This document shows, in pieces, positions 19,676 to 60,100 of a stretch of 64,000 bases of DNA (position 1 is its first letter; every line of letters begins with the position of its first letter). Location: the NCBI GenBank assembly GCA_002689345.1, contig NZFU01000002.1, positions 8,438-72,437 on the forward strand, read 5' to 3'. Both the position numbers and the translations under genes were made by a program. This DNA is from Methanobacteriota archaeon (GTDB lineage Archaea; Thermoplasmatota; Poseidoniia; Poseidoniales; Poseidoniaceae). The notes under the pieces were generated by a model. The model did no database searches. It saw only the letters and a program-made list of their open reading frames with translations, and had not been told where the DNA came from.

Positions 19676-20611
19676 TTACAATATTTTGTTATCAATCCAC
19701 TCTAATATCAGTGCATCTCTTTCCTCATTAACTCTGTTTTTTGAGTGAGTGAGAGATGTTAGTAAATGTGGATATACTTCTACATCTTGGTCTAATAGTA
19801 AATCATAGTGGTACCTTCCAAGCCTAGAATCATTCTCTGCTTGTAGTAGAAGTATGGGGGCCTTTGGTACACCCCATGAAGGAATGTCAATATCTCTCCA
19901 TTCAATATTACCTATTTCAGGATGTATTTTGTTGAAACCTTTCATCGCCCATCGTTTGAATAGGGGGAACATGAATGGTATATTGGATGTTAATTCTTTC
20001 ATTATTGGCGAATATGCAACCATTGGCGACTCTAGCATTAGTGTGCCATAACTGTCCTTCCACCACCCTTGGTGGCGTGTGTTGTGCATGCCTATACAGA
20101 TGAATGCCCCTAGGCTATGTCCAAAAAAGTGAACCTTGTTAATTTTAGATTGATCTACAGACTCTAGTAATATCTTGAGGTCTTGGATTACTTTACCTGC
20201 AGTCCATTCTGGTGTGTCAGGAGCCATTCCGTGCCCTCTCATATCATGGGCTAGTGTATGTAGCCCTTTATTGCGAAATAATTGAATTCTTTCTGTGAAT
20301 TTTTCACTTGAAGATTGCCATCCATGTACGAAAACTACCATGTCTGATTTATTCGGTTGATAGTTAACATATCCATAGACATCGACTCCATTGTTATCTA
20401 AATTTATGATATCCCAATCTTTATTGGAAAAAGGAAGACTTCTCTTAGTTGGTCCGCGGAATATTAGTCGCAATAATATTTGATGAACCAATATTAGAAT
20501 AGTAATGCTGACTAGAGCTATTGAATAAGGTGTCAGTATTGACAAAACAGCACATGTGGCAATTAATGTTAGTATGGCATAGCCATCCCAGGTCGCCTTA
20601 CGGCGGTCCAT
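19676..20611 (-). CDS. Alpha/beta hydrolase with an N-terminal TM anchor
   Basis: The GHSLG nucleophile elbow is present, with HGW upstream. The N-terminal hydrophobic helix is YAILTLIATCAVLSIL. Confidence 0.6.
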   Translation of the reverse strand: MDRRKATWDGYAILTLIATCAVLSILTPYSIALVSITILILVHQILLRLIFRGPTKRSLPFSNKDWDIINLDNNGVDVYGYVNYQPNKSDMVVFVHGWQSSSEKFTERIQLFRNKGLHTLAHDMRGHGMAPDTPEWTAGKVIQDLKILLESVDQSKINKVHFFGHSLGAFICIGMHNTRHQGWWKDSYGTLMLESPMVAYSPIMKELTSNIPFMFPLFKRWAMKGFNKIHPEIGNIEWRDIDIPSWGVPKAPILLLQAENDSRLGRYHYDLLLDQDVEVYPHLLTSLTHSKNRVNEERDALILEWIDNKIL

Positions 20612-20613
20612 AT

Positions 20614-21480
20614 TCAGTCCTCAGTTTCTTCTACTGATTCGCCTTCAACAGATTCCTCTTCGGCCTTAGCAGCTCTCGCCTCTGCCTTTTTCTGAGCTTT
20701 TTCTTGGCGCTCAACTTGCTTTTCTTGCCACTTGTCACCAAAGTCACCAAGAGATTCAAATCTAGCTATCCAACCAGTTTCATTTCCAGTAGCTACGTGC
20801 TTAACCAGGTATGCGCTAAATGCTAAATCGAAAATTCCTTGAGAAAAATCTGAATTCTTCTTGAAGAAGAAATTTAATATCCAAATGACAATCATTACTG
20901 CACCAATAGCTACGTTTGTCACACCGCCACTTTGTCCAAGGTTCTGGAAATTCATTCCAATTAGAATGAATCCAATTAGGAATAAGAATCCTAGGCTGTT
21001 ATTCAAAACCGCATGTATGAATATTGGTTTGGACCCAGAGGAATTGATGTATTTGGTACGAGAAACGAATTCTCCGATATTCCTACCAGCCCATATAGGG
21101 ATGACAAGCCAGTTGACAAGTATCATTAGGAATGCTCCTATGAAAGGTATTGTCAAATCTGGATCTCCGAATGCGAATATTGCAAGTGTTCCAATAAGGA
21201 CTCCGAAGTTCCATGCGAAATTAATCAACCAACCGATATAACGAGGCATTTTACCTGATAGTTCGTATCCTTCTGGAAGACCACTAGGGCGTAGTTTTTC
21301 CGTTTTAGCTGCTTTTGGAGCTGCTCTCTTTGCAACTGCTTTCTTCGCTGCTGCTTTCTTTGGCGCCGCCTTCTTTGGCGCTGCTTTCTTTGGCGCTGCT
21401 TTCTTAGGAGCTGCTTTCTTTGCAACAGCTTTTGCTGGCTTATCTTCATCAAGATTTTCGACTTTGTCAAGTAATCCCAT
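20614..21480 (-). CDS. RDD-family-like membrane protein with an N-terminal KKAAP-repeat (histone H1-like) tail and an acidic coiled-coil C-terminus
   Basis: The sequence (KKAAP)x5 is followed by IGWLINFAWNFGVLIG..AGRNIGEFVSRTKYINSSGSKP, which is RDD-like. The C-terminus is KQVERQEKAQKKAEARAAKAEEESVEGE. The first ATG is at 21480. Confidence 0.5.
   Translation of the reverse strand: MGLLDKVENLDEDKPAKAVAKKAAPKKAAPKKAAPKKAAPKKAAAKKAVAKRAAPKAAKTEKLRPSGLPEGYELSGKMPRYIGWLINFAWNFGVLIGTLAIFAFGDPDLTIPFIGAFLMILVNWLVIPIWAGRNIGEFVSRTKYINSSGSKPIFIHAVLNNSLGFLFLIGFILIGMNFQNLGQSGGVTNVAIGAVMIVIWILNFFFKKNSDFSQGIFDLAFSAYLVKHVATGNETGWIARFESLGDFGDKWQEKQVERQEKAQKKAEARAAKAEEESVEGESVEETED
21322..21425. repeat. 15-bp tandem repeat (gctgctttctttggc)n encoding the KKAAP repeats
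   Basis: About 6 near-perfect 15-bp copies are read directly in the sequence. Confidence 0.7.
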
Positions 21481-21490
21481 TTTTGTCACC

Positions 21491-22645
21491 TCAACTATAC
21501 ATTGCACCGATTGCACGGTATGTTTCGAATTCTTCTGAATCTACGAATTCAGCTATAGCATCTTCAGGCATTCCGCCCAATAATGTGTCGACGACCGAGA
21601 AGAACTCAGAACGGTCATCTTCAGTGGAGTTTTCTGGAGATGAGCCTACGCTACGGTAAACTTCAAACCCATCGGATTTAGTAAATTCCTCAATTTTATC
21701 TTCGGGAAGATTAGAACCTAATAGTGCATCAACAATTGATACAAACTCTAAGAATAAATCGTCAGATTCGTCAGCGGGTTCAGCAACATAAGATTCTTCT
21801 TCTTCATCAACCTCAGCCTCATATTCCTCTTCGTCATCCGATTCAATCAATTCATCTATATCGGCCTCACCAGCAATTACAGCCTTGACTAATTTACGCT
21901 CAGACATTAATGATTCAAGCATTGGTCTTAATTCACGAAGTAATTCGCGGTCACCTTCATCTTTAGCAGATTGGTACTCCGGTTTGAGTCTACGTAATTC
22001 ATCTTCGATGGTTGTTAGTTGAGTATTCAACTCCACTAATGTATTTCCATCAAGGTGGCTTTGCTCTTCCTCTTCTTGATTTAGTAGTTGGACGGTTGGA
22101 GAATCTCTCACTTCAGCAACTTTGTCATCGCGCTCTTCTTTACGCATTACTATGATGTCACGGTCTAGTTCATGCCCAAATCTATCTGAATATCGATCGA
22201 GTAAACTGCCGATTTCGCCCTGGCTAATTCGGTCAATGTGCCCATAAACCTGTTGAAGCGGTTTACCACTCTTTTTGGCATACAGGCCGGAATATGAATC
22301 CTCTTCAACAACTTCTGGTTCCGGAGCTGGTGCTGGACTAGGTGGTAATGCCTCAATAGCGGGTTTTGGAGGAGGCATGACGGGCGCTTCAGCAGTTGCT
22401 GGCGTAGGTACTGGTGGTGGCCCTGCTGGAGAACTAGGAGCAGGTGGTGGAGCAGGGGCCGGAGGCGCAGGTAATGGTGCAGGAGGAGGAAGGGGTGCTG
22501 CAGGTAATGGAGCCGGTGGTGGAGGCAATGGCATACCCGGTGCAGGTGGCATTGGCATGCCTGGAGGTGGTGGCATTGGCATAGGCGGTAGGCCTGGCGG
22601 AGGGGGTAAATCGTTGCCTTTATTCTTCTTCTTACCCAGCCCCAT
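21491..22645 (-). CDS. Polyproline-rich, acidic, intrinsically disordered protein with two tandem roughly 40-aa acidic EF..VD.LLG..PED.I.EF..S..FE.YR..G modules
   Basis: Residues 10-110 are PPPPGLPPMPMPPPPGMP...APLPAPP. The C-terminus shows a clear internal duplication (DLFLEFVSIVDALLGSNLPEDKIEEFTKSDGFEVYRSVG versus SEFFSVVDTLLGGMPEDAIAEFVDSEEFETYRAIG), which supports this frame. The start was set to the ATG at 22645 to avoid overlapping priS. Confidence 0.5.
   Translation of the reverse strand: MGLGKKKNKGNDLPPPPGLPPMPMPPPPGMPMPPAPGMPLPPPPAPLPAAPLPPPAPLPAPPAPAPPPAPSSPAGPPPVPTPATAEAPVMPPPKPAIEALPPSPAPAPEPEVVEEDSYSGLYAKKSGKPLQQVYGHIDRISQGEIGSLLDRYSDRFGHELDRDIIVMRKEERDDKVAEVRDSPTVQLLNQEEEEQSHLDGNTLVELNTQLTTIEDELRRLKPEYQSAKDEGDRELLRELRPMLESLMSERKLVKAVIAGEADIDELIESDDEEEYEAEVDEEEESYVAEPADESDDLFLEFVSIVDALLGSNLPEDKIEEFTKSDGFEVYRSVGSSPENSTEDDRSEFFSVVDTLLGGMPEDAIAEFVDSEEFETYRAIGAMYS
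22290..22620. repeat. GC-rich low-complexity stretch (Pro/Ala codon repeats) that is open in three frames
   Basis: The spurious ORFs 22165-22659(-) and 22275-22766(+) arise here. Confidence 0.6.
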
Positions 22646-22728
22646 GGTGTGCACCTCATACCTCGTGGGCAGTAATCTGCCCTTGAACGTTGCCATTGGT
22701 CGAACCATACGTAGTATGGTATTGCGAC

Positions 22729-23967
22729 CTAAGATACAAGACGAGCCCATCCTTTCAAAATCATGAAAGTCGCCCCTGCCTCATGTATCTCAATTACATC
22801 ACCAGTAGACCCATCAATGATGCGATCATCGAATCTTGCAATCGCATCATCAACAGTGATTTCTATTCGTACTAATTCGTCTCGTGAAAGAGCTATTCCT
22901 TCACTAAGACAGTCAAATGAATTTGACCCATCTGGGTCGAGGCGATGGAGTGGGAATTCAGTGACCCTCATTCCACTCTTACCATGTAGCGAACCAGGCC
23001 ATCGGATTTGGCGTCTAGTATCGATAGTCACTACTTCATCTGTTTCTCCAGCACTACCCAACACAACACTTGAATCGGCCCTGATTAAATTCTGAAATAG
23101 TAATGCGTGATTATTCAAAGCAGTCAATCTTCCATTCAACACTCGTTGTCTGCGACTATCGGATTGCATTAACTCGGATAATTTCTCAACACTAGCTTTG
23201 CCTCGAAGTCCCTTTATTCCCTCTCTATCCATCATTTCCTGTAAAGATGCAGTCATTACCTTCAACATCTTGGTATCTCCTTCGTAAATAGAATCCAATT
23301 TACCAACAACCGATTCTATTCCTACTCCAACACGTTTGGCCCATCCTGTTGCGCCAGATTGACGCGACCTCTCTAAAAGGTCGCTTACCTCTACGCCTTC
23401 TCCGCGTATATGGCTAACTAATTCTCTTCTTGCTTCAGAACCAAGATGGAAGAATTTGGGATCTCGGTAATGCAGATGGAATCCTCGGTGCCCTGAAAAT
23501 GTAACCTGTAAATACTCTTCTTTGAATCCAAAATCTGGCTGCAAAAAATCATTCCATAGGGACCATGCTTGTTCTTGAATAACATCTATCATTCCGGGGA
23601 AGTCTTTGTCGGTCACACCTGGCAAATGGTCACCATCTAGATCGAAAATCAAGTCAGCACCCAACCAATCTTTGTCTGCCATCTTCAATTCATGGGGTTT
23701 TTTCCAGTATGCAGTTGAATAGAAACACGAATGTTGCGGCCTTTCACATATGAATCTCCGCACACTTTCCATATCAGAAAATGCCTTGTGCCGTAGGGGC
23801 ATTCCTCCTCCGAATGGAATAAACATCCATTCTCTAGTTCTTAGTCGAGGCGGGGTCCACAATTGTGCAGTACGATAGTACTGTGTAAATCGATGCGCGA
23901 ACCTAGCCCAGCCTGAAATTGTACCACCTCTGAGGTAGGTAGTTGGCGGAGACCTTTGAATCTTCAC
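22729..23967 (-). CDS. priS: DNA primase small (catalytic) subunit PriS
   Basis: It has the DLIFDLDGDH catalytic aspartate motif and REWMFIPFGG..RH. The protein is about 410 aa. The start is GTG, overlapping the upstream TGA as GTGA. Confidence 0.8.
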   Translation of the reverse strand: MKIQRSPPTTYLRGGTISGWARFAHRFTQYYRTAQLWTPPRLRTREWMFIPFGGGMPLRHKAFSDMESVRRFICERPQHSCFYSTAYWKKPHELKMADKDWLGADLIFDLDGDHLPGVTDKDFPGMIDVIQEQAWSLWNDFLQPDFGFKEEYLQVTFSGHRGFHLHYRDPKFFHLGSEARRELVSHIRGEGVEVSDLLERSRQSGATGWAKRVGVGIESVVGKLDSIYEGDTKMLKVMTASLQEMMDREGIKGLRGKASVEKLSELMQSDSRRQRVLNGRLTALNNHALLFQNLIRADSSVVLGSAGETDEVVTIDTRRQIRWPGSLHGKSGMRVTEFPLHRLDPDGSNSFDCLSEGIALSRDELVRIEITVDDAIARFDDRIIDGSTGDVIEIHEAGATFMILKGWARLVS

Positions 23968-24167
23968 TCTTTCCAGAAGCGAGTTTCTCTTTGAATTTCA
24001 ACAGTTGCAGTATCGGCACCAGTTAGTTCAACATAGTGTTCCCAGCAAAAATAGTTCTTGTCAACTACCATTGCTTCGCCGAAAGTCATACGTGTGCCGC
24101 AAGATTTGCACCGAGGGCCAAGTTCGCCATTTGGAGTCTGAGCAAGTTGGATATGTTCGTGTGGCAT
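23964..24167 (-). CDS. Small (67 aa) zinc-ribbon-like protein translationally coupled to priS
   Basis: It has CKSCG...(17)...CWEH. Its stop overlaps the priS GTG start. Confidence 0.4.
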   Translation of the reverse strand: MPHEHIQLAQTPNGELGPRCKSCGTRMTFGEAMVVDKNYFCWEHYVELTGADTATVEIQRETRFWKE

Positions 24168-24217
24168 GGGTCTTCCTCATTATGGCGTGACAGGATGAAG
24201 TCTTTGAATGTGGCGTA

Positions 24218-24700
24218 TCACCAGTCGATTTCCGTGCTTTCATCGCACAAGGCGAGTAAATCCAAAGCAACTTCGCACGATTCTGAAATTTCAGGTATTT
24301 TATCACTCAAAAATTTGAGCAATACTGGTTTAGCACTGCGATCACCTATGGCGCCAAGTGCCTCAGCGGCTTCATGGCGCACCATGACATGCTCTTGTTC
24401 ATCGCTCAGGACCTCGATTAATTTAGGAACTGCTAGTGGATCTTGCATTTGTCCAAGGACATATGCTAACTCGTGGCGCAACAATGCACTATGAGAATCA
24501 AATCCATCGCATAAAGCCATCACTGCATTACTCGTTCTATCATTCCTTAGCGAGAAAACTGCTCTCATTCTGAGGAACATTTTGATGTCCTCGTCAAGAA
24601 GAGTGTTGCGAAGTGAAGATACATTCGATTCCTTAGATGGTGGAGCAGGATCTACAGAACCATATTCTGAAACACCAGGGATTCGGTCTGCAATACTCAT
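24218..24700 (-). CDS. Half-size deoxyhypusine hydroxylase (DOHH)-like HEAT-repeat protein with two His-Glu motifs
   Basis: It contains SVDPAPP, SALLRHELAYVLGQMQDP, MVRHEAAEALGAIGD and SCEVALDL. These match blocks I recall from each half of eukaryotic DOHH (HE metal-binding dyads, AEALGAIG, SCEVALD). The protein is 160 aa, about one DOHH lobe. Confidence 0.55.
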   Translation of the reverse strand: MSIADRIPGVSEYGSVDPAPPSKESNVSSLRNTLLDEDIKMFLRMRAVFSLRNDRTSNAVMALCDGFDSHSALLRHELAYVLGQMQDPLAVPKLIEVLSDEQEHVMVRHEAAEALGAIGDRSAKPVLLKFLSDKIPEISESCEVALDLLALCDESTEIDW

Positions 24701-24703
24701 GAA

Positions 24704-25588
24704 TTATTCACCAGAACCGATAAAACTCATACCATCAACGTCGAAATTGGGGTCTATGAGGCCTATTCGTTGCCCCTCTTTCAAAAACATCCTAATCGAC
24801 TCTCGCCCTTCAGACTTGTAATCAATGGTTCTTTCGTTAACATACATAGATACGAATTCCTTATTGGTTTCGTCATCTATACCTCTACCCCATTTTTTAG
24901 CGAATTCTAGTGCCGTATCAGGGTTTGCGATAGAATGTTCGATACTCATTTTCGTATACATTGTCACATCCTCCATAGTTTGGTTACCCAAATCTTTGCG
25001 AACCACATTTCCTCCAAGAGGCATAGGTAATCCTCCAGTCTTTTCATTCCACCAGACTCCCAAATCAACTAAGACGTCTAAGTCGTGATCAACATAAGTC
25101 AATTGTCCTTCGTGAATAATTAGTCCTGACAAGTAACTTCCATCTAGGATTTTAGGAATGATTTCATCGAATGGTACTACTTCGTAAACCAAGTCGCCCC
25201 AGCATAGCCGAATCCCAAGATATGCACTTGTTTTGAATCCAGGGACAGCAATAGCACTATTCTTTGCATCTTCAATGGTTACTCCCTTCTTACAGACGAC
25301 CATTGGCCCATATCCCTCACCCATAGATGCCCCGCAGTTCATCAATGCATAATCATCTGAAATCTCAGGGAATGCATGGATACTGACAGCAGAAACTTCT
25401 AACTCCTTGTTCATAGCTCTGTGATTTAATGTTTCAATGTCTTGCAATTCATGTACAAAATCATAACCGGGAGTAGGAAATGCATTCGTAGTCATAGCAT
25501 GAAACATGAAAGCATCATCAGGGTCTGGTGAGTGACCGATTCTTACAATCTTGTCTCCGGTATTATTCGTGGGTAATTTAGTATTCAT
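24704..25588 (-). CDS. mqnD: 1,4-dihydroxy-6-naphthoate synthase (futalosine pathway) MqnD
   Basis: It has the IGHSPDPDDAFMFHAM and DIETLNHRAM motifs that are characteristic of MqnA/MqnD-fold proteins. Its longer length and these motifs fit MqnD. An alternative start lies at 25627. Confidence 0.65.
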   Translation of the reverse strand: MNTKLPTNNTGDKIVRIGHSPDPDDAFMFHAMTTNAFPTPGYDFVHELQDIETLNHRAMNKELEVSAVSIHAFPEISDDYALMNCGASMGEGYGPMVVCKKGVTIEDAKNSAIAVPGFKTSAYLGIRLCWGDLVYEVVPFDEIIPKILDGSYLSGLIIHEGQLTYVDHDLDVLVDLGVWWNEKTGGLPMPLGGNVVRKDLGNQTMEDVTMYTKMSIEHSIANPDTALEFAKKWGRGIDDETNKEFVSMYVNERTIDYKSEGRESIRMFLKEGQRIGLIDPNFDVDGMSFIGSGE

Positions 25589-25607
25589 TTTATCACCTAT
25601 TGTAGTA

Positions 25608-26099
25608 TCAATGACATGCTTTGCCAAATTTCTTCAATCGCCAGTAATTATACGGCCATGGAGTTATGAATCCTGCGAATAACATGATTGGAATAACCCA
25701 CCATGTAAGTATAGCGCCACCAGTCATCAATAGATCAACTAAATTCATTGCCGCCTCCATGGAAATCATGGATATTAGGGACATGCCAATAGCTACTTTG
25801 AATGCCTCTTTCAATATCATTTGCTTAGCTAATATTAAGGTTTCAAGAGCAATAGATGTTAGTAATCCATTAATCATTGCTAAAGCCATTATACTCATGG
25901 CGGACCAGCCAGAATCTGTATAGATGAATTGGAAGGCAGCAATAGTCCCAAAATCACCAATAGAACATCCAATGAGGCACCATTTCGTATTATTAGCAGA
26001 AGTTTTCCAGACCTCTTTATCTTTCCAAGAGAATACAGAAACTGTCGATGATTCATCATCGGTATCACAGCAGGAGCCGTCGCCCATCTCTGCGTCCAT
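25608..26099 (-). CDS. Small polytopic membrane protein with an acidic Cys-containing N-terminus
   Basis: It is 163 aa with 3-4 predicted TM helices. No family was recognised. Confidence 0.35.
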   Translation of the reverse strand: MDAEMGDGSCCDTDDESSTVSVFSWKDKEVWKTSANNTKWCLIGCSIGDFGTIAAFQFIYTDSGWSAMSIMALAMINGLLTSIALETLILAKQMILKEAFKVAIGMSLISMISMEAAMNLVDLLMTGGAILTWWVIPIMLFAGFITPWPYNYWRLKKFGKACH

Positions 26100-26228
26100 G
26101 GACTAGCGAATAGTGTAGGGTTTTTGAATAGTGGTATGTTGCTGGGAGGTGAAAATATAGTAACAAATACTAATATTTCGTCCAAATCCTCCGTTAGACT
26201 TTCAAGTTTGATGTGTCCTAAGTGTATT

Positions 26229-28586
26229 ATGGAGGGTAGTTTGAGATCTAGGCTCATTCTATCTATTACCGTTATTATTTTGGGAATAACACCCATTATT
26301 TCAGCAAATCCAAGCGGGTTGACATACTTAGACTCAACATGGTCTACCTACGATGCTGAAGATGGAGAATTAGTCGATATAAACTCAAACCATACTATTG
26401 TGGCATCTGTTCATGACGATAAGGTAATTTTGTTCAATTCTTCATCATTGGAAAAAATTGCAACCTTTCCATTTGACAGGATATCTACAATCAAGTTTTC
26501 TCCAAGTGGGGACTTATTGGCTGTGAATAAAGTTACTAGTACTCAAAATAAAGATTCGTTAAAACTCATTGACGTCGCTTCACTTACAGTTTTGGAACAG
26601 AGCGGAATATCTGATGGTAAAGCAAAAGATATCGATTGGAGTAATGATGGACAAATAATAGCAGCACCTGGCCCTGATGGTGATGTAGAACTATACAAGC
26701 GCTCAGATTTATCTGTCAAAGATACGCTACATAGCGTCCATAATGTTGATGTGAACTGTATTGATTACAGATTTGATGATGCATATGTGATAACTGGAGA
26801 TGAATCTGGACGATATGCTGTTTGGAATACTACTAGTGAGGGTGCCAGCCATAGAGAGGGTGATTATCGCGAATATGATGAAAACCTCTTAGATTGTAAA
26901 TTCACTCCGAATGGAGAAGATATAGTATTACTTGGGGAAAGTGGGGAAATAACCTCCAGAGGATTTCCTGATTGGGGAGTAATTCACCAAAATACAATAG
27001 AAGGTGCGAAAGAAATACTCTTTTCCAAATCTGGCACTAGAATGCATGTATTGGTGGAATCTGATGATTTCAGAGGTTTGCTAACATACGATTATGATAC
27101 GTTTAGCGAGATTAAGCGAACCACATTTTTCCACAATGTCGAAGATATCGCCTTCATCGAGGATGAATATAGTCGCCTTCAAGCATTATATGTTGCAGGA
27201 GGGACTGGCCAAATCTCTGTATATCTGAGGGATTATACTCCTGATGGTTTCAACGAACCTGGTGCAGATTTAGATGGTGACCTGGTGCCAGATAACTTGG
27301 ACCCGGATGATGATGGCGACGGATTGATTGATGATTGGGATAACGACATCGGCTGTGATGCACCAGATGGTACTCCTTGCTCCCAATATGCAGATTTAAC
27401 TAAAATTCGAAGCATCGAGATAGATGTTGGTGAGGAATTCACTATACGCGATAGAATAACACTTCCAACAGAAGATTCCAGCAATATTAGAAACTTGAGT
27501 CGCAATGCAATAGCGGTTGATCAGAAAATAAGCTCACATGAGGCGCAACTCTTTGCCGATGCAATGTGCTCGAATATGGATCATGGAGACATTATCGAAC
27601 AGTGGAGAGAATCCATTGGATTATCGAATGGTAAATTGGGAGAGGCGGTAGTGCATTGCATACTCGATGATGGAATGACTTTTGTTAAAATTGGAGACTC
27701 ATCGACTCAAATTACACTTTCTGTGATTACAACATTCACTTATCAAAGTAATATCACGCTCCCCCTTAACATTACACTAAACCGGCAACCACTACCTACT
27801 GATGGCTCGATAGGTTGGCTAGCCCCCTCTCATCCAATCGCTTTGTCGTTCAGTGGCAAAGGGATTATTGGAGAAGAGATTCCAATGTGGCAAAATAAGG
27901 ATGGCGATGTTGTAAAAGTAGAATTAGAACCAATGATTGAACAGGAGCCCACTATATTGGAAACAGCCCTAGATTGGGCTCTACATCCAATTGCATTTGT
28001 ATTTTATTTAGCTGGAATAATAGCCTTGGGAACTCTATGGATTAGAAGGGAAAATCAAATTGATATCGATTTGGATGATGACATGGATGATGACATGGAT
28101 GAGAATTCAGATGATGATGATGATGAAGATGATGATTTAGATGAAGAATTTGAAAATCAATCTGATGATGATTCGAACGATATTGTAAATGATGAAGAGC
28201 CTAAAGAGAGGCCAAAACGTACCCCTCCTAGCAAAGAACGTACTATGTACACAACATCGCCACAACAATCACTGGCGAAAAAGAAGAAAGTAAATCCGAC
28301 CACCTTGAATAAAGATGGACCAATAATGAAAACTAAGCGTAAACGATTGATTGCTCCTGAAGATGAGCCTATTGTTGCTAAGAAGAAAGTTATAGTTGCG
28401 CCAGTTGAGCCTAAGATTAAGAAAAGAAAGGTGAAGGTTGTTCAAGAAACAGTTCCAGAAGAGCCTAAGAAGAAAAAACGTAAATCGGTTCGTAGGAAGG
28501 GCAAAACTAAATCTAAATCATCTAAAAAAATCGATGAGAAGAATCTCCAAGACAATCTTGTAAACGATTTCCTGTCTGAAGATTGA
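26229..28586 (+). CDS. Membrane-anchored WD40/beta-propeller protein with a signal peptide, a C-terminal TM helix, and then a cytoplasmic polyacidic plus polybasic tail
   Basis: The signal peptide is MEGSLRSRLILSITVIILGITPIISANP. WD-like blades follow. The TM helix is IAFVFYLAGIIALGTLWI, followed by DDDMDDDMDENSDDDDDEDDD and then KKKK/KRKR-rich C-terminal 150 aa. The ORF-track start at 26124 is TTG. The ATG at 26229 gives a clean signal peptide. Confidence 0.55.
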   Translation: MEGSLRSRLILSITVIILGITPIISANPSGLTYLDSTWSTYDAEDGELVDINSNHTIVASVHDDKVILFNSSSLEKIATFPFDRISTIKFSPSGDLLAVNKVTSTQNKDSLKLIDVASLTVLEQSGISDGKAKDIDWSNDGQIIAAPGPDGDVELYKRSDLSVKDTLHSVHNVDVNCIDYRFDDAYVITGDESGRYAVWNTTSEGASHREGDYREYDENLLDCKFTPNGEDIVLLGESGEITSRGFPDWGVIHQNTIEGAKEILFSKSGTRMHVLVESDDFRGLLTYDYDTFSEIKRTTFFHNVEDIAFIEDEYSRLQALYVAGGTGQISVYLRDYTPDGFNEPGADLDGDLVPDNLDPDDDGDGLIDDWDNDIGCDAPDGTPCSQYADLTKIRSIEIDVGEEFTIRDRITLPTEDSSNIRNLSRNAIAVDQKISSHEAQLFADAMCSNMDHGDIIEQWRESIGLSNGKLGEAVVHCILDDGMTFVKIGDSSTQITLSVITTFTYQSNITLPLNITLNRQPLPTDGSIGWLAPSHPIALSFSGKGIIGEEIPMWQNKDGDVVKVELEPMIEQEPTILETALDWALHPIAFVFYLAGIIALGTLWIRRENQIDIDLDDDMDDDMDENSDDDDDEDDDLDEEFENQSDDDSNDIVNDEEPKERPKRTPPSKERTMYTTSPQQSLAKKKKVNPTTLNKDGPIMKTKRKRLIAPEDEPIVAKKKVIVAPVEPKIKKRKVKVVQETVPEEPKKKKRKSVRRKGKTKSKSSKKIDEKNLQDNLVNDFLSED

Positions 28587-29375
28587 TCACCAGGCCATAA
28601 CCGGATCTTCTTCCATGTTACATGCTAGTTTGAGGAACTGCTGCAACCCTTCCATGTCCTCTGTGTCCATTCGATTTATCACTTCACCAAAATAACGTTG
28701 TAATCTCTCTATGGTTTGCGAGGATTTCCTACTACTGATATTGATTACATCATTTCTGACATTACTACTATTTTCAAAATCAACCAATCTTTTCAGCAAG
28801 GCTGCATGAGCTGTTTTGACAGACTCGATGTCTGAATCCTTCCTAGCAGCAAATACTCCGAACACCATTGGATGACCGCTTACCATATTCCATTCTTCTC
28901 CTAAGTCCATACGAACTAATTCGGGAAAATCTCTAGATGCTTCTAAAGCACGGTCGCCGATTAACAAACACCCATCGCATGTGTTTAGCATTCCTTCTAA
29001 ATCAGGACCCATCTCGGTATAAGAGGGATTTAGATTTCTTTTTTCGATTAGAAACTTGAGTAAAGCAACAGATGTGGCGGAATCGGAGGGGAGTGCTATG
29101 GATTTCATATCTTTGATTCTAGATGAGCCGAATAAAAGTACACTTCCAACCTCGCCCTTGCTAGAGATAGATAAATCTGGGACTAAAACCAAGTCATGAC
29201 TATTTTTTGCATAATCGGCAGCCGGAATTGGGGCCAGAATACAATCCCTGCGTAACAAATGACCAGTTAGCCATGATGGCGGCGCAGGTAACACCTTCCA
29301 TGAATTATCAAGGCCATAGAACAGTGGTTCACAATTAATGAATGATACACGGCCAATTGTTCTATCCCAAGACAT
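28587..29375 (-). CDS. mqnA: Chorismate dehydratase (futalosine pathway) MqnA
   Basis: It has the TIGRVSFINCEPLFYGL N-terminus typical of MqnA. The protein is 262 aa. It is adjacent to a radical-SAM mqn gene. Confidence 0.65.
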   Translation of the reverse strand: MSWDRTIGRVSFINCEPLFYGLDNSWKVLPAPPSWLTGHLLRRDCILAPIPAADYAKNSHDLVLVPDLSISSKGEVGSVLLFGSSRIKDMKSIALPSDSATSVALLKFLIEKRNLNPSYTEMGPDLEGMLNTCDGCLLIGDRALEASRDFPELVRMDLGEEWNMVSGHPMVFGVFAARKDSDIESVKTAHAALLKRLVDFENSSNVRNDVINISSRKSSQTIERLQRYFGEVINRMDTEDMEGLQQFLKLACNMEEDPVMAW

Positions 29376-30578
29376 CTAATCACCTGTAGCCATACGTAAA
29401 CTCCGACGTTCGGGTACATTTGGTATTATGTATTTTTCAAAGGATGAATATGTGGTGTTTCTCTGTATGGGTACTGAACCTGAATTTTCTACGATTTTTG
29501 CTAACTTAGCACCATCGTGATTCAATGGCGCGGTTGAGCCCGCCAAGTGCATAATAGATTCCTTGTGTACGGTGCCATCAATATCGTCAGCACCATACTG
29601 TAATGCCAATTCTGTCATTTCGTCACCAATATTCATACGATATGCCTTGATATGTGGTATATTGTTTAACATTAGACGAGAAACGGCTATCACTCTAAGA
29701 ATCTCAGTCCCAGTAGCTAATTGGGCTTCAGGTAAGCGTGAATCATCGGGCAAGAACGGATATGGTACGAAGCATTGGAAACCAGAGGTTTCAGATTGTA
29801 ACTCCCTCAATTTCAATAAATGAGTGATTCTTTGATCATTTGTTTCCACCGTCCCAAATAGCATTGTACAATTGGTAGGAATATCGAGCGAATGGGCTGT
29901 TCGATGGATTTCAAGATATTCTTCAGAAGATTCCTTTCCTTTGCAAATAATTTCTCGCACACTGTCATCTAAAATTTCGGCTCCTCCTCCAGGAAGGGAT
30001 CCTAGGCCTGAATCCTTCAATTGCTGTAGTACCTGTTCGATCGAGCAATTTGAAAGGCCAGCAATATGCTTGATTTCGACAGCGGTCAATGCTTTGATGT
30101 GAATGTGAGGGAACTCTTCTTTTACTTGGCTAAATAGTTCACAATAATATTCAGCATCCCAGTCGGGATGAAGCCCTCCTACTGAGTGAACTTCATCAAC
30201 ATGAGATGAATAGGTACGCAAATCTTCGATATATTCGGATATCTCCATCTGGTAAGCATCTGCTGCTCTTCGCCCCCTTCTGAATGCACAAAACTTGCAA
30301 GCAAGAGTGCATATATTCGTTTGATTGATGTGTACGTTCATATTGAAAAACACATGATTACCAAACCTTGCTTGTTTAACCAAATTTGCGATTTGCCCAA
30401 TTACATCTAATTCCTTAGAAGTGAAAAGGAAATTACCATCATCTCTAGAAAGCGGAATATTTTTTGACAACTTTTCAATAATTTCGGCAAACGAATCAGG
30501 CCATGATTGACTAAGCAAAGAATGAGACAGGTTTTGCTGCCAATCGGCCAACTCACCTGCTGCCATGGTTTTGCGCAC
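29376..30578 (-). CDS. Radical SAM menaquinone biosynthesis enzyme (MqnC or MqnE family)
   Basis: It has the CTLACKFCAF (CxxxCxxC) motif. The protein is 400 aa. It is in an operon with mqnA. MqnC and MqnE cannot be distinguished by eye. Confidence 0.65.
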   Translation of the reverse strand: MRKTMAAGELADWQQNLSHSLLSQSWPDSFAEIIEKLSKNIPLSRDDGNFLFTSKELDVIGQIANLVKQARFGNHVFFNMNVHINQTNICTLACKFCAFRRGRRAADAYQMEISEYIEDLRTYSSHVDEVHSVGGLHPDWDAEYYCELFSQVKEEFPHIHIKALTAVEIKHIAGLSNCSIEQVLQQLKDSGLGSLPGGGAEILDDSVREIICKGKESSEEYLEIHRTAHSLDIPTNCTMLFGTVETNDQRITHLLKLRELQSETSGFQCFVPYPFLPDDSRLPEAQLATGTEILRVIAVSRLMLNNIPHIKAYRMNIGDEMTELALQYGADDIDGTVHKESIMHLAGSTAPLNHDGAKLAKIVENSGSVPIQRNTTYSSFEKYIIPNVPERRSLRMATGD

Positions 30579-51831: not shown

Positions 51832-54800
51832 GTGAGAAAAATGGCAAATATCTCTTACTTAGAAAATCCTCTCGAATCAGAGGTTTTGTATGAGACATTA
51901 TGTCAACCAGTAAGGAATTGGTTTAAAGATAAATTCCCTGATTTTACCAAACCTCAGAAATTAGCAATTCCTTCGATTATGGATGGAGACCATCTATTAC
52001 TTTGTTCACCAACCGGTTCTGGAAAGACACTAACGGCATTCCTAACTATTATCGATAAATTGGTCAGACATGCCTTAGATGGAACTTTAGAACAACGTGT
52101 CTACTGTCTTTACATATCTCCAATAAAAGCTCTAGCAAATGATATTCAAAAGAACTTGATTGGACCGCTTGGGGAAATAGAGGAGAAATATCTACCAGAT
52201 AGGGCTCAAGGGAAAATTCGAGTAGGTCTTAGGACTGGTGATACCCCTCAATCTGAAAGGCAAAAGATGCTGCGTAAGCCACCTCATATTCTGATTACAA
52301 CACCAGAGAGTATGGCTATTGCTATCTCATCACCTCGATTCCAACCTATTGTATCCAATGTTGAATGGATAATTATTGATGAGATGCACTCATTGGTTCC
52401 AACAAAGCGAGGAGTACATTTAGCACTTACAATTTCACTTCTAGATACGATTCTAGAGAGACCAGTTCAACGAATTGGTATATCTGCTACGATGGAACCA
52501 TTGGAAACTGTAGCAGAATATCTAGTAGCAAGTGATGACCGCGAAAGTCGTAATGCAAGTCAGGATGTAAAGATTGCAAAGATTAGTGGAGCTAGAGAAT
52601 TAGATTTAGACATCCTATTGTGCTCTCCAAAATTCAGTGACCTTTCGGTGATGAAAGTTCTAGAGATGAATGTAGAAATGATCGCTGATCTAATCAGTGC
52701 ACATAACACAACTCTAGTATTCGCAAATACAAGAAAAATGACTGAAACTTTGGTACAAAAGTTACGTCCTTACTTAGGCGAATTAATCGCAGGTCACCAC
52801 GGTTCTATGGACAAGAGAATCCGTCTTGATGTCGAGAGGAAATTAAAACTGGGCCATTTGAGGGCAGTTGTCACTTCATCTTCCTTGGAAATGGGTATTG
52901 ATATCGGTTCTGTCGACATGGTAATCCAAATCGGCTCGCCAGGAGACATTGCTACAGCATTGCAAAGAATAGGTAGAGCAGGACACCACGTAGGCGGAAT
53001 TCCTCGTGCTAGGTTCTTGCCAACGAGTGTAGATGATCTAATCGAATTAGCTGCATTACAAGCAGCAATTCAAACTGGTGAAATGGATAAATTAGATTTT
53101 CCACAAAATAGTTTAGATGTTTTAGCACAGTTCTTGATAGGTCTCGTAATTATCAATGAACGAGATATTGATGAAGCCTATGAAGTAGTTACTAGCACTT
53201 GGTCATATCGAAATTTGAGATATGATGATTTTATTGAAGTTCTAGATATGCTTGAAGAAGAACGTCGTGTTTGGATTGATTGGGAAGAAAACCTCTATGG
53301 AAAGCGCGGATATTCAAGAATGATTTACTACACAAATATTGGTACTATCGCTCCTGATAATTCATACCTAGTATTCAATGCCGAAGGAAGTATCTTGGGG
53401 CAATTATCATCTTCATTCGTTGCAAACCTAAGAGGCGGAGATGTCATTCTTCTTGGAGGCTCCACTTACAGAGTAACCAATATTCAAGGAACAAGAGTAA
53501 ATGTTGCCTCAGTTACAGGATACAGGCCAACAGTCCCTTCATGGAGTGGTGAAGCTAGAAGCCGTTCAAGGGAGTTATCTGGGGCGTTGTTAGACCTCAT
53601 AGGACATTGTGTTAACACTCTAAGACGTCAAAACGACCCTCGTGTAATTCTAAGAGATGCTTATGGATTGAGCGAAGGTGTATCTAATACAATAGCTAGG
53701 CATTTAGAAGAGCATACTCTCGATTCATTCCAGGTACCCGATCCAAATCGACTAATTGTTGAACAAATCGTTTCTGGTGGAATGCCAACATACCTGATAA
53801 CATCTTGTCGAGGAAGAGGATTCAATACTGCATTAGGATACTTTATGGCAGGATTGGCAGAAAAAGATGGTATCGCTGTGCTAGAGTTGTCATTTGATGA
53901 AAATGGATTACTTATCAAAACTAGTCAAGAAGTAGACCCAGGAAAAATGTATGAGTCATTCCAATCCAATGACCATCTAGAGGTCATTGAAAGATATATT
54001 GTAAATACACAAATATTTGCTAAGAGATTCAGAGAAGTTGCAGGCCGCTCACTAATTATTCCTAAGAGAATCGGGGCTGAAGAAGTGAGCCCTCAGCAAT
54101 TCCAGCAACGCGCAGATTCATTGTTGCAGAGACATCGTTCGATTGAAGATTCATTATTGATTAAAGAAGCGAAGGCTGAAATTATGTTCGGTGATATCGA
54201 CATAAAATCACTAAATGACTTCTTAGAATCCAGTAAAGACTCTGAAGCAAGAATCGTTCACACAAAGGTTCCTGTTCCTTCAAGGCTCGGAATGAGCCTT
54301 TACATGAGTACTTTCGAAGATCTACTGTCAATGAAGACAAGAGCGTTCCTTGTCAAAGACATAGACCCTGAAATTTTACGCCGATTGTTGGGTAATAGGA
54401 GTCTTGCAACTGAATTAACCGATGAGCAATTAGCAGATTACTATTCCAATAAGGTCCCTAATCCAACCAATGCTTCACAACTTCTGCACCTAATGAGTAA
54501 AGGTGGAGGTTTAGATCGTAATTGGGAAAACCCTCTGTATGCTGCTAAACTAGCAGGTATCGAACACAGCCTTATCGAAAAATGGGTTGCTGATTTAGCA
54601 CAACAAGGTGAAATTACAAAATTGCGTTCAACTGGAATGAAAGAACTTGATGACAAATGGTTTACTTCATACATGGCTGAAATCCATGGCTCTCTAGGAT
54701 GTATTGCTGAAGCTGGTGGCAAGGACATGGAAGATATTCGTGACCTTTACACCAAGGGCATTACATATGAGGTAGCAACTGATTTTAATGGATTAAAGCC

Positions 54801-57126: not shown

Positions 57127-57175
57127 CAAACTTTCTTACCAATATCATCTAATCACAATTTTCAGTCCAATAATC

Positions 57176-60100
57176 ATGGACATGAGAAGTGTTAGATTAA
57201 ATAACAAGGAAATGGGACGGACAATTGTGAACCGTAAGGCGTTTATCCTAATTGCTCTGATGATTTTAGTTTCAGCAAGTCCACTATTATCTTCAACATC
57301 TGCTAACGAAGTCGAAGATATTGTGATTCTTGATACTGCAGTCAATCCTGCCAATAACCACACCTACCATTTGTTATCAGCATCATCTTGGAGTGATGCT
57401 GCAACCGTTGCTCGTAGTCTTGATGGATTCTTGGTAACCATAGATGATGCTGAAGAAGACGAGTGGATTTTCGATACATTTGCCAGTGGAAATGACACCA
57501 CACGTCACCTATGGATCGGTCTTTCAGATTCACAAGAAGAGGGAGATTATCGCTGGCATGATGGAACTCCATTCATGTATCGAAATTGGGGTGAAGGGCA
57601 GCCTGGAAGTGGGGATGACGAAGATTATGTCCACATTACAGGAACCAATATGGGATCTATCGAGCCAGCGGATTGGAACGATTTAGAAGATGACCCACAA
57701 TACTTCCCTGTCTATGGGGTAGTTGAGATTGGTGAAGGTGCTGATTATGCCCTCAGGTTTGATGGCGATGACGACCACATAATCATCGATGAAGAAATGC
57801 CAGATTGGGATGGCCATATTGAGATTGAAGCATGGGTCAATGTTCCAGATACAGATGGAATACAATTTATCACAATGTTCGGAGATTATGGATGGGGTCT
57901 TTATCTGAATAATGGAGACTTAGCCTATTCAAATCAATATTCAATGTCACAGAATCCAGTTTCAAACCAATCCATTCAAGAAAATGTATGGACTCATGTT
58001 AAGGTAGTCGTAAATACCACAAACGGTGGTGAATTTTTCATTGACAACCAATCAGCAGGTTTGATTGATGTAAATGATTCACAAATTCCAAGTGGTGACT
58101 TCGGTTCAAATGACTGCTTCCAATCAGGAGATGATTGTGATGAGTTGTTTATTGGAAAGATGGGAGCAGGTTGTGACTGTAACTACTTCCGTGGAATGCT
58201 TGATGATGTTATTATTAGTAATTCGATGAATGAAAGTATGTGGATGTTCACTGAAGGTGAAGGTGCATCAACCGTTGATTCACAAAATCGTGAGGGGGAA
58301 ATAATTGGCGCATCATGGGTTATGCCCGATGGAACAATTATTGCCCAGGCTGTTGAAATAGAAAATGGTGAATTCTATGATGGAATCGATGCAAATGCTG
58401 GAGACACCTTGCTATTTTTCATGGAGATTCCTGAAAACACCCAATATCTGAGTCTCAGTATGTACACATGGGAATTTGATTTCGAAGCGGAAGAAACATC
58501 TGAAGAAATAGAAATTGAAATATATATTTCGAAAGATGAAATTCCTTCGGCTTGGGACCATGACTATGAAGTGATCACATATGATTGGGGATTGTATGTC
58601 TATGAATACTTTGAATGGCCTGATGAAGGGACATATTGGATGACAGTTTCTTCCAATTATGAAATTTCAAACCTAGAGATAAATGCATACTGGGAACTTG
58701 CACCTGAGCCGCCGGAACTCGATGATATGACTGAACTTAATGATGGCATTGCAGTTACTGGTCAAACCATCACAAGAAATAGTGACAAACCCCTCTACTA
58801 CTATGTAGATTTACAAGATGAGTTGGCAGAATTACGTGTCAACACATGGGGCGGACCTGGTGATTGTGAACTGCACATAGCCCTAGGAGCCCTACCGATG
58901 ACCGATGATTGGGGATGGGATGATTTTGAGTCACAAAGTTCGAGTTCAGACACTAGCGGTCGACAAATCGGTGGTGGGCAAGAAACCTCAGACCATTCAT
59001 ACAATCCGGGTAATGATGAAACTGTGCAAATTTTCGATGCCCAACCGGGTATTTACTACATCATGATGACATCTTATAGTGGATGCAGACAAGTATCAAT
59101 ACAAGCTGATTTCACATATAGTCCAGACAATGTTGACCCTGAATCTGCTATCGAATTAACCGCTGGAATTTCCTATGGTCCACTTAGTGGATTCGAGGGA
59201 TTAGACCAATATTTCTACATCGATGTACCAGTGGGAACTGAGCGCTTAGAAGTTGATTTGAATAATGGTGATGGAGAGGCTAAATTGATGATGAGGCTCG
59301 ACCAATATCCAACATGGACAACCTATGACAAGCACTCTAATGCACCAGGTGCTGGTGATAAAATTGGATTTAATGATCCAACTCCTGGACGATGGTACAT
59401 ATTATTGGGCAGTGAAGAATATTACAGTCGTATCGATATTACAGCATCCTTTGAAGACCGCTATGTATGGACATATGATGGTGAACCTATTCAGTTATTC
59501 AATGATGAAGAGATTGGAGGAATTAGTGCTCCAGAAGGAGAAGAATTGTACTTCTTCATAGATTTAGGTGATGATGTTGCTTCAGATTTATTCATTGAAA
59601 CATGGGGTGGCGAAGGCGACCTAGCACTATTTGCCGAAGTTGAGGAAATCGACTGGGAAGACATGAACGGTGGCGGGCCAGGAGGTCGACAATGGGGCGA
59701 AAATGGAGAATATGAATCCGATAATGGTGAGGCTAATGAAGAAATAAGTATATTCTTTGCAACAGGTCAAATAGACATCACAATGTATGCAAATACTGAC
59801 ATTGAGGATATATCGATTATCGCAGTATGGGAAATATTTGATGCACCGGGACCTGGGCCAGACCCAGACCCAGACCCAGAACCAAACCCAGACCTAGAAA
59901 TTATTCCGTGTGATGAATATGCTTTGGAATTGTTTGAAGAGATGGATAGAAACTCTGATGGCGATTTAGGTCCAGAAGAAATGGATGAAGATGAATTAGA
60001 AGAATTTGACACCAACAGGGATGGTGTTATTGACATCAATGAATTAACAATGAGTGCTTGTACATGTGAAAATGAAATATGGATGACATTCATGCAAGTA

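What the first reader, a model, noticed from the sequence alone, without database searches (positions are those of the whole stretch)
24218..24700. Stand-alone half-size deoxyhypusine hydroxylase (DOHH)-like protein in an archaeon
The 160-aa HEAT-repeat protein carries two His-Glu dyads in the contexts LLRHELAYVLGQMQD and MVRHEAAEALGAIGD. It also has SVDPAPP and SCEVALDL blocks. As far as I can recall the human and yeast sequences, these blocks occur almost verbatim in each symmetric half of eukaryotic DOHH. Eukaryotic DOHH is a pseudo-dimer of two four-HEAT lobes, and each lobe gives two HE motifs to the di-iron centre. A single-lobe protein like this one could form the same site as a homodimer. 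The archaeal enzyme that hydroxylates deoxyhypusine on aIF5A is generally regarded as unidentified. A half-DOHH would be a direct candidate, and would also illustrate the ancestral pre-duplication form.
Basis: partly seen in the sequence, partly recalled or inferred. Interest (0 to 1): 0.72.

Follow-up and report, generated by a model that had tools for sequence, protein, structure and literature searches.

The report
Half-size deoxyhypusine hydroxylase in marine archaea
A 160-residue protein conserved across the abundant ocean archaea of Marine Group II is a single-lobe version of the eukaryotic two-lobe iron enzyme that completes the hypusine modification of translation factor 5A, an enzyme the literature says archaea do not have.

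Summary
It is a specific homolog of deoxyhypusine hydroxylase (DOHH), not a generic HEAT protein. It hits human DOHH at E=5e-65 and aligns gap-free to each lobe. Its two His-Glu dyads fall on the four human HE dyads that hold the iron ligands. An AF2 model superposes on one DOHH lobe at 1.3 A.

The gene is genuinely stand-alone. 83 Poseidoniales (Marine Group II) loci keep the same ~160-aa gene in the same gene string, with no second lobe nearby and strong purifying selection. A tandem of two copies models as full-length human DOHH (TM 0.92), so a homodimer could rebuild the di-iron site.

One detail is wrong: SVDPAPP and SCEVALD occur only in the linker/C-lobe of eukaryotic DOHH, not in both halves. 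The core, however, is undifferentiated between N- and C-lobe types. That fits a pre-differentiation origin but does not prove it.

Papers from 2012 to 2021 state that archaea lack DOHH, and no held paper mentions this family, although IMG auto-labels it 'deoxyhypusine monooxygenase'. Activity, dimerisation and the partner genes dhs and aIF5A in this genome remain untested. Because I saw it only in Poseidoniales, it would not explain hypusine in Sulfolobus or Thermoplasma.

The parts
24218..24700 (-). CDS of the single-lobe DOHH homolog (160 aa; four HEAT hairpins plus an N-terminal arm)
   Evidence: ORF. Human DOHH E=5e-65. AF2 pLDDT 89.6 with 8 helices. Foldseek 4d4z TM 0.88, rmsd 1.3 A.
24638..24658 (-). 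SVDPAPP, the core of the invariant N-terminal arm (G14-P21). It corresponds to the inter-lobe linker motif of two-lobe DOHH.
   Evidence: Invariant in 33 archaeal homologs. Aligns to human 'SVDPAPP' before the C-lobe with identical 12-residue spacing to LLDE. Found in the linker of 79/112 two-lobe DOHHs and never before the N-lobe. Low pLDDT in the monomer (52-65), rising to 70-93 when it follows another lobe.
24470..24475 (-). His76-Glu77, first HE dyad (aligned with human H56-E57 and H207-E208)
   Evidence: Invariant in the family and in both lobes of eukaryotic DOHH.
24371..24376 (-). His109-Glu110, second HE dyad (aligned with human H89-E90 and H240-E241, all four of which are iron ligands)
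24257..24280 (-). SCEVALDL block in the last HEAT helix. The S and V states are C-lobe type.
   Evidence: Signature columns: S is 100% in archaeal and C-lobes against T 97% in N-lobes, and V is 92% in C-lobes against L in N-lobes.
24704..25627 (-). Upstream neighbour, a MqnA/MqnD-type menaquinone (futalosine pathway) protein. Its stop codon is 3 nt before the DOHH-half start. This is context, not a functional part.
   Evidence: Pfam VitK2_biosynth 7e-63. Adjacent in 82/83 loci. 3-nt gap.
23964..24167 (-). Downstream conserved 67-aa Cys-rich ORF (context)
   Evidence: No Pfam hit. Present between the DOHH-half and priS in 81/83 loci.
22729..23967 (-). DNA primase small subunit PriS (context; anchors the conserved gene string)
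   Evidence: Pfam DNA_primase_S 6e-18. Downstream in 82/83 loci.

Best explanation
The gene encodes a single-lobe member of the deoxyhypusine hydroxylase lineage. Each 160-aa chain is one four-HEAT lobe that carries one iron-binding set (His76, His109, Glu110), the neighbouring Glu77, and an invariant N-terminal arm (GSVDPAPP). Two chains most likely associate head-to-head as a homodimer that reproduces the V-shaped, pseudo-two-fold arrangement of the N- and C-lobes of eukaryotic DOHH, so that the two iron sites face each other and form the O2-activating di-iron centre. In the aerobic, surface-ocean Marine Group II archaea this dimer would hydroxylate deoxyhypusine on aIF5A to give hypusine. 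What is shown: specific homology, conservation of the ligand residues, the lobe fold, stand-alone status, vertical conservation under purifying selection, and geometric compatibility of two copies with the DOHH architecture. What is inferred: iron binding, homodimerisation, substrate and activity.
For: Specific DOHH homology: human DOHH E=5e-65, both lobes gap-free, against 1e-7 for CpcE and 2e-3 for YibA. NCBIfam lyase models score 10-fold below their cut-offs. 106 of 112 two-lobe DOHH representatives match twice, at 43-54% identity. Both HE dyads align with all four human HE dyads, whose H56/H89/E90/H207/H240/E241 are the iron ligands. In generic alphaRep HEAT repeats the same positions are R-R/R-A (alignments). 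H76, E77, G83, H109 and E110 are invariant across archaeal halves and eukaryotic N- and C-lobes. Fold: AF2 pLDDT 89.6. Best PDB match is 4d4z at TM 0.88, rmsd 1.3 A, 47% identity, five orders of magnitude in E-value ahead of any other HEAT protein. A real, functional gene: 63/160 invariant positions, pN 0.14-0.30 with saturated pS 0.75-0.99, the same gene string in 82/83 loci and native-like GC/GC3. Stand-alone: exactly two HE dyads and one arm per locus and no second lobe within +-6 kb in 83 loci. The only MAG with two copies is a mixed bin. Dimer compatibility: a head-to-tail tandem of the window protein folds with pTM 0.85 and matches full-length human DOHH at TM 0.92, rmsd 2.4-2.5 A over 288-290 residues, while continuous HEAT solenoids give TMq <=0.37. 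One lobe supplies ligands for only one iron, so di-iron chemistry needs two lobes (inference from the ligand list). IMG's pipeline independently names family members 'deoxyhypusine monooxygenase'.
Against: There is no biochemical evidence of any kind. dhs and aIF5A were not seen: they are not in the window and not within +-6 kb in 83 loci. Their presence rests on the literature statement that all archaea have them. The neighbours (menaquinone synthesis, primase) give no functional link. The tandem model is only a compatibility test, because its alignment contained real two-lobe DOHHs and the solved human structure may have been in AF2's training data. Other archaea make hypusine without any recognisable DOHH, so an unrelated archaeal route exists and MGII might use that too. 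A divergent second lobe elsewhere in the genome is not excluded, because the genome scan used strict motif patterns.
Confidence: 0.6

Rival explanations
1. Same fold and same di-iron site, but a different substrate. The dimer would be an O2-dependent hydroxylase acting on something other than aIF5A-deoxyhypusine, such as another protein-bound or free polyamine-like amine.
For: No genomic linkage to dhs or aIF5A. The gene sits in a string with menaquinone and replication genes. Other archaea make hypusine without DOHH, so this protein is not required for that step in archaea generally.
Against: About 50% identity to eukaryotic DOHH lobes, as high as eukaryotic C-lobes share with each other (p-distance 0.52 against 0.516). 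Invariance extends well beyond the metal ligands to E77, G83 and the whole concave-face motifs shared with DOHH. From my own recollection of the DOHH mutagenesis literature, not checked here, these are the positions implicated in substrate binding. DOHH has only one reported substrate (text).
Confidence: 0.15
2. Heterodimer. The half-size protein pairs with a second, more divergent HEAT lobe encoded elsewhere in the genome, not with itself.
For: Eukaryotic DOHH uses two non-identical lobes. The genome scan used strict patterns ([MI]VRHEA[AG]EA, HE[LIV][AC]Y[VC][LM]GQ) that a divergent partner would escape.
Against: No second lobe within +-6 kb in 83 loci. Among the 80 listed genome hits only one MAG has two, and those are two copies of the whole syntenic block, i.e. 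a mixed bin. The core scores equally well as an N-lobe and as a C-lobe (+2.1 +- 4.8 bits), which is what a subunit that must play both roles would look like. The tandem of two identical lobes models confidently.
Confidence: 0.08
3. Non-catalytic remnant: a captured piece of a eukaryotic DOHH (linker plus C-lobe) kept as a HEAT-repeat binding or scaffold protein with no hydroxylase activity.
For: The arm SVDPAPP and the ESCEVALD block are linker/C-lobe features. All visible prokaryotic hits are from one archaeal order living among eukaryotic plankton. Codon-usage fit is the lowest of 42 window genes, at z about -1.8.
Against: All metal-ligand residues are invariant across orthologs whose synonymous sites are saturated, which is hard to explain without a metal site. 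The core is not C-lobe-like (+2 bits against +31 for real C-lobes). GC and GC3 are within 1.3 SD of the neighbours. No viral copies.
Confidence: 0.07

Closest known systems
Eukaryotic deoxyhypusine hydroxylase (human DOHH, PDB 4D4Z/4D50; yeast Lia1), EC 1.14.99.29
   Same: HEAT-hairpin lobe fold (TM 0.88, rmsd 1.3 A). 43-54% identity to each lobe. HE dyads at the positions of the iron ligands. MVRHE and HE.AY.LGQ motifs invariant. The linker motif SVDPAPP has identical spacing to the first helix. Two copies reproduce the whole enzyme architecture (TM 0.92).
   Different: One lobe per chain (160 aa, 4 HEAT hairpins, 2 HE dyads) instead of two (about 300 aa, 8 hairpins, 4 dyads). It must oligomerise to form a di-iron site. 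The lobe is undifferentiated, scoring equally as N- or C-type. It is archaeal, sits in a prokaryotic gene string, and has a conserved C-terminal Cys...Trp tail. Activity is untested.
PBS-lyase-type HEAT proteins (CpcE/CpcF, NblB, E. coli YibA, MTH187) and the designed alphaRep proteins derived from them
   Same: The same Pfam repeat families (HEAT_PBS 1.6e-15, HEAT_2 6.8e-14), and the repeat consensus VR..AA.ALG.IGD.
   Different: No HE dyads: the equivalent positions are R-R or R-A in the alignments. Much weaker similarity (CpcE E=1e-7, YibA 2e-3, MTH187 1e-3, against 5e-65). NCBIfam CpcE, NblB and CpeY scores of 18-29 bits against cut-offs of 300-600. They are continuous solenoids, not a V-shaped two-lobe assembly (TMq <=0.37 to the tandem model).

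Membership tests
Deoxyhypusine hydroxylase (DOHH/Lia1) family | Significant full-lobe sequence similarity to characterised DOHH, stronger than to any other HEAT family | tested here: met
   Human DOHH E=5.2e-65 with both lobes gap-free. The next natural non-DOHH protein is CpcE at 1.3e-7. 632 representatives at E<=1e-30, and those of about 300 aa are two-lobe DOHH-like proteins.
Deoxyhypusine hydroxylase (DOHH/Lia1) family | His-Glu dyads at the iron-ligand positions (human H56/E57, H89/E90, H207/E208, H240/E241) | tested here: met
   H76-E77 and H109-E110 align with both pairs of human dyads. The ligand list comes from PMC3306375. The residues are invariant in 33 archaeal homologs and in 12 N- and C-lobes.
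Deoxyhypusine hydroxylase (DOHH/Lia1) family | Eight HEAT repeats in one chain forming a symmetrical dyad with four HE dyads | tested here: not met
   The chain is 160 aa with 8 helices (4 hairpins) and 2 HE dyads. There is no second lobe in the window or within +-6 kb in 83 loci. The architecture can only be met at the level of a dimer.
Deoxyhypusine hydroxylase (DOHH/Lia1) family | Lobe fold and two-lobe V-shaped geometry as in PDB 4D4Z | tested here: met
   Monomer model against 4d4z: TM 0.88, rmsd 1.3 A. Tandem model against full-length 4d4z: TM 0.92, rmsd 2.4-2.5 A. The tandem test is biased by its alignment and possibly by AF2 training, so it shows compatibility only.
Deoxyhypusine hydroxylase (DOHH/Lia1) family | Curated family model (HAMAP MF_03101 / InterPro IPR027517 / KEGG K06072) | not testable with these tools
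   Pfam and NCBIfam hold no DOHH-specific model. Indirectly, IMG names several family members 'deoxyhypusine monooxygenase'.
Deoxyhypusine hydroxylase (DOHH/Lia1) family | Binds two Fe per active site and hydroxylates deoxyhypusine on (e/a)IF5A | not testable with these tools
   This needs biochemistry.
Deoxyhypusine hydroxylase (DOHH/Lia1) family | Co-occurrence with deoxyhypusine synthase and IF5A in the same genome | tested here: inconclusive
   No aIF5A hypusine-loop or DHS motif in the 64-kb window or in 879 kb of related loci. The rest of the genome is not available. The literature states that all archaeal genomes have both.
Phycobilisome-lyase HEAT proteins (CpcE/CpcF/NblB/CpeY) | Reaches the curated NCBIfam equivalog cut-off | tested here: not met
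   CpcE 29.1 bits against 330, NblB 26 against 300, CpeY 17.9 against 600.
Pfam HEAT_PBS / HEAT_2 repeat class (generic) | Passes the Pfam gathering score | tested here: met
   HEAT_PBS 56.2 bits (cut-off 20.9) and HEAT_2 52.4 bits (cut-off 27.7). This is a repeat class, not a functional family.

The most novel reading that the evidence does not exclude
The Marine Group II protein is a living single-lobe, pre-differentiation-grade DOHH. It would be an obligate homodimer whose lineage separated from the eukaryotic enzyme before the N- and C-lobes diverged (before LECA), and it makes hypusine on aIF5A. On this reading DOHH is not a eukaryote-only invention, and the eukaryotic enzyme arose by tandem duplication and fusion of such a gene, with the N-terminal arm becoming the inter-lobe linker.
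Probability: 0.35. Interest if true: 0.88.

Novelty: new variant of a known kind. Interest (0 to 1): 0.72.

Why it matters
Papers on hypusine from 2012 to 2021 state that no DOHH orthologue exists in archaea, and how archaea hydroxylate deoxyhypusine is an open question. This family shows that at least one very abundant archaeal order encodes a close DOHH relative, which makes part of that question directly testable with a small, easily expressed protein.

It is also a natural experiment on how a pseudo-symmetric two-lobe di-iron enzyme can be built from one lobe. The archaeal lobe matches the N-lobe and C-lobe models equally well. That gives a concrete candidate, or at least a functional analogue, for the pre-duplication state.

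Two things limit the impact. The family was seen only in Poseidoniales, so it does not explain hypusine in Sulfolobus, Halobacterium or Thermoplasma. And the organisms are uncultured, so in vivo proof must come from heterologous work or metaproteomics.

Tried and rejected
1. A distance tree (NJ, Kimura distances, 200 bootstraps) of 54 archaeal halves, 71 N-lobes and 71 C-lobes. The archaeal clade is supported (186/200), but the N and C clades are not recovered (11-12/200), and the archaeal clade nests in C in 53 and in N in 77 replicates. It is uninformative, so I replaced it with signature-column and cross-validated HMM tests.
2. Truncated gene or assembly artefact: rejected by conserved length and synteny in 83 loci.
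3. Two paralogs, suggested by the double hit in MAG ARS60: rejected, because both contigs carry the whole syntenic block, so it is a mixed bin.
4. Bacterial occurrence, suggested by a MAG labelled 'Rhodobiaceae': rejected, because that contig has the archaeal synteny and is misbinned.
5. Recent horizontal transfer: GC and GC3 are within 1.3 SD of the neighbours, codon fit is lowest of 42 genes but only z about -1.8 for a short gene, and synonymous sites are saturated between orthologs. There is no sign of recent arrival.
6. Viral carriage (magroviruses): none found.
7. Motif searches for aIF5A (GKHG.[AS]K) and DHS in the window and in all loci: nothing.
8. Looking for MGIIa/MGIIb assignments or KO tables in the Rinke et al. 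supplement, and for 'K06072' anywhere in the library: nothing.
10. Foldseek against AFDB50, which would have given organism labels for structural neighbours, was unavailable.
11. The primary DOHH papers (Park 2006, Kim 2006) are not held, so the ligand list was taken from PMC3306375 instead.

Full report
**Observation.** All four quoted blocks are present. No other HE..LG motif exists in any frame of the 64-kb window. The start codon lies 3 nt after the stop of the upstream gene and is preceded by GGTGA at -13 to -9.

**What it is.** Pfam sees only generic repeats (HEAT_PBS, HEAT_2), and NCBIfam gives phycobilisome-lyase models at 18-29 bits against cut-offs of 300-600. Against all PDB sequences, however, the best hit is human deoxyhypusine hydroxylase (4d4z) at E=5.2e-65. 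There are two gap-free stretches: query 24-149 on the N-lobe (103 bits) and query 8-148 on the C-lobe (116 bits). The best natural non-DOHH HEAT proteins are CpcE (1e-7), MTH187 (1e-3) and YibA (2e-3).

In that alignment His76-Glu77 and His109-Glu110 fall on the four HE dyads of human DOHH. Chain positions 61/94 and 212/245 correspond to residues 56/89 and 207/240 once a constant 5-residue offset of the crystallised construct is allowed for. PMC3306375 lists H56, H89, E90, H207, H240 and E241 as the iron ligands. In generic alphaRep repeats the same positions are Arg-Arg or Arg-Ala, so the dyads are DOHH-specific and not a property of the repeat.

An exhaustive search of 1.84 billion representatives finds 632 proteins at E<=1e-30. 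Those of about 300 aa match the query twice at 43-54% identity. The ones that carry names are eukaryotic DOHHs from Phytophthora, Plasmodiophora, a bee and an amphipod.

**Structure.** AF2 with 33 archaeal homologs gives pLDDT 89.6 and pTM 0.83. The model has eight helices (four HEAT hairpins) and low-confidence termini. Foldseek against the PDB puts 4d4z first (TM 0.88, rmsd 1.3 A over 144-147 columns, 47-48% identity, E=1e-10). The next hits are designed alphaRep proteins at E=2e-5.

**A genuine stand-alone gene of Marine Group II archaea.** The top ~80 database relatives are 127-179 aa and come from marine metagenomes and MAGs named Euryarchaeota or Ca. Poseidoniaceae. NCBI calls them 'hypothetical' or 'HEAT repeat domain-containing', and IMG calls several 'deoxyhypusine monooxygenase'.

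A scan of one genome per GTDB species found 399 genomes encoding a relative. The 80 best are all Poseidoniales, including the 2012 MG-II assembly CM001443.1. One record labelled Rhodobiaceae has the archaeal synteny and is misbinned. I could not see the remaining 319 hits, so the status of MGIIb, MGIII and other archaea is unknown.

In 82 of 83 loci the gene sits in the same co-directional string: mqnA-like, half-DOHH, 67-aa ORF, priS, Pro-rich protein. Every locus has exactly two HE dyads and one SVDPAPP, and none has a second lobe within +-6 kb. The single MAG with two copies has two copies of the whole block, which indicates a mixed bin.

Sixty-three of 160 positions are invariant. Between orthologs pS is saturated (0.75-0.99) while pN is 0.14-0.30. 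GC and GC3 are within 1.3 SD of the window's genes. No copy occurs on IMG/VR viral contigs.

**How it most likely works.** One lobe provides two His and one Glu, the ligand set for one iron, so DOHH-type di-iron chemistry needs two lobes. That is an inference from the ligand list. With no second lobe gene in sight, a homodimer is the simplest solution.

As a compatibility test I folded a head-to-tail tandem of the window protein, aligned to eleven real two-lobe DOHHs. It gave pLDDT 87.3 and pTM 0.85. It matches full-length human DOHH at TM 0.92 and rmsd 2.4-2.5 A over all 288-290 residues, whereas continuous HEAT solenoids reach TMq <=0.37. In the tandem, the second copy of the arm gains confidence: about 70-93 against 43-79 for the first copy. 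That fits an arm that packs against a partner lobe.

This shows that identical lobes can occupy both positions. It does not show that they do, because the alignment, and possibly AF2's training, contain the answer.

The proposed substrate, deoxyhypusinated aIF5A, is inferred from two things. Identity to DOHH lobes is about 50%, as high as eukaryotic C-lobes share with each other (p-distance 0.52 against 0.516). Invariance also extends beyond the ligands to E77 and G83. By my recollection of the mutagenesis literature, unverified here, these are substrate-binding positions. An O2-dependent enzyme also fits aerobic surface-ocean archaea.

**Origin.** The query scores higher against the C-lobe than the N-lobe in 106 of 112 two-lobe proteins, by +29 bits on average. 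Most of that comes from the N-terminal arm, which only the linker plus C-lobe can match. In the 121-column core the archaeal consensus is an even mosaic: 34 columns favour C, 33 favour N, and the summed log-odds is -2 bits.

Cross-validated lobe-specific HMMs give:

| Sequences | C-HMM minus N-HMM score |
|---|---|
| Held-out C-lobes | +30.6 +- 7.2 bits |
| Held-out N-lobes | -27.5 +- 9.4 bits |
| Archaeal halves | +2.1 +- 4.8 bits |

Archaeal halves even fit the N-lobe model better (158.7 bits) than real N-lobes do (149.2). Mean distances put the archaeal family near the centre: A-C 0.52, A-N 0.56, N-C 0.62.

So this is not a recently captured, differentiated crown-eukaryote C-lobe. On the other side, the arm (79/112 in the linker, 0/112 before the N-lobe) and the ESCEVALD states are shared with the C-lobe side only.

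Two histories fit. In the first, the lineage split off before the lobes differentiated, the arm is ancestral, and it became the linker after duplication and fusion. In the second, arm plus C-lobe was captured early and then symmetrised under homodimer constraint. The bootstrapped distance tree cannot decide between them.

**Comparison with the known, and novelty.** It works like DOHH and belongs to the DOHH lineage by sequence, ligands and fold. It fails the architectural definition of eight HEAT repeats and four HE dyads in one chain, so I file it as a new variant and not a plain member.

Papers from 2012, 2016, 2018 and 2021 state that no DOHH orthologue is known in archaea. Searches combining DOHH, deoxyhypusine or hypusine with MGII, Poseidoniales, Thermoplasmatota or Asgard terms, and for K06072, found nothing. 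The only prior trace is IMG's automatic label.

Hypusine is reported in Sulfolobus, Halobacterium and Thermoplasma, lineages in which the literature reports no DOHH orthologue. The family therefore does not solve the general archaeal puzzle.

**Not done.** dhs and aIF5A of this genome were not seen. The full phyletic distribution, a proper ML phylogeny, a true multimer prediction and all biochemistry remain open.

Noticed in passing
window 21491-22750 (-): A 419-aa protein whose N-terminal half is an extreme poly-proline tract (PPPPGLPPMPMPPPPGMPMPPAPGMPLPPPPAP...), followed by an acidic repeat region. It has no Pfam hit. It is conserved in the same gene string, two genes downstream of the half-DOHH, in about 80 Poseidoniales loci at 44-68% identity. 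Poly-Pro tracts are the classic IF5A-dependent sequences, and whether the proximity means anything is untested.
   Followed up: partly
window 23964-24167 (-): A 67-aa Cys-rich ORF (CKSCG...CWEHY, zinc-ribbon-like) with no Pfam hit. It lies between the half-DOHH and priS, overlaps the priS start by 4 nt, and is conserved in 81/83 loci.
   Followed up: partly
window 19676-26099 (-): Eight co-directional genes with gaps of -26 to +50 nt form an operon-like string: DUF4396, mqnA-like, half-DOHH, orf67, priS, Pro-rich protein, DUF973-like, alpha/beta hydrolase. They mix unrelated functions.
   Followed up: no
window 24704-25627, 28587-29375, 29376-30578 (all -): Futalosine-type menaquinone biosynthesis genes: two VitK2_biosynth (MqnA/MqnD-like) proteins and a radical-SAM/CofH_C (MqnC/E-like) protein. 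They are split by a divergently oriented 820-aa WD40 beta-propeller protein with a long acidic/Lys-rich tail at 26124-28586 (+).
   Followed up: no
L048 (CALDQY010000261.1); L047 and L063 (NYZH01000044.1, NYZH01000071.1): A GTDB representative MAG labelled 'uncultured Rhodobiaceae bacterium' contains a 25-kb contig with the full archaeal MGII gene string, so that contig is misbinned. MAG ARS60 carries the whole block twice on two contigs at 62% and 67% identity to the window protein, which indicates a mixed bin of two MGII populations.
   Followed up: yes
window 51832-57126 (+) and 57104-60631 (+): A 1764-aa Lhr-type helicase (DEAD, Helicase_C, WH_Lhr, DEAD_assoc) fused to an AlkZ-like DNA glycosylase region. 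It is followed by an overlapping 1175-aa protein with C-type lectin, Laminin_G_3 and PPC domains, which looks like a secreted or surface protein.
   Followed up: no
archaeal family alignment A2, residues 149-160 of the window protein: The half-size family has its own conserved C-terminal tail (L149, Cys152, terminal Trp160; a subgroup has W..EF/WEE..W). It has no counterpart in the aligned part of human DOHH and is low-confidence in the AF2 models. Its role, for example in dimer contacts, is unknown.
   Followed up: no
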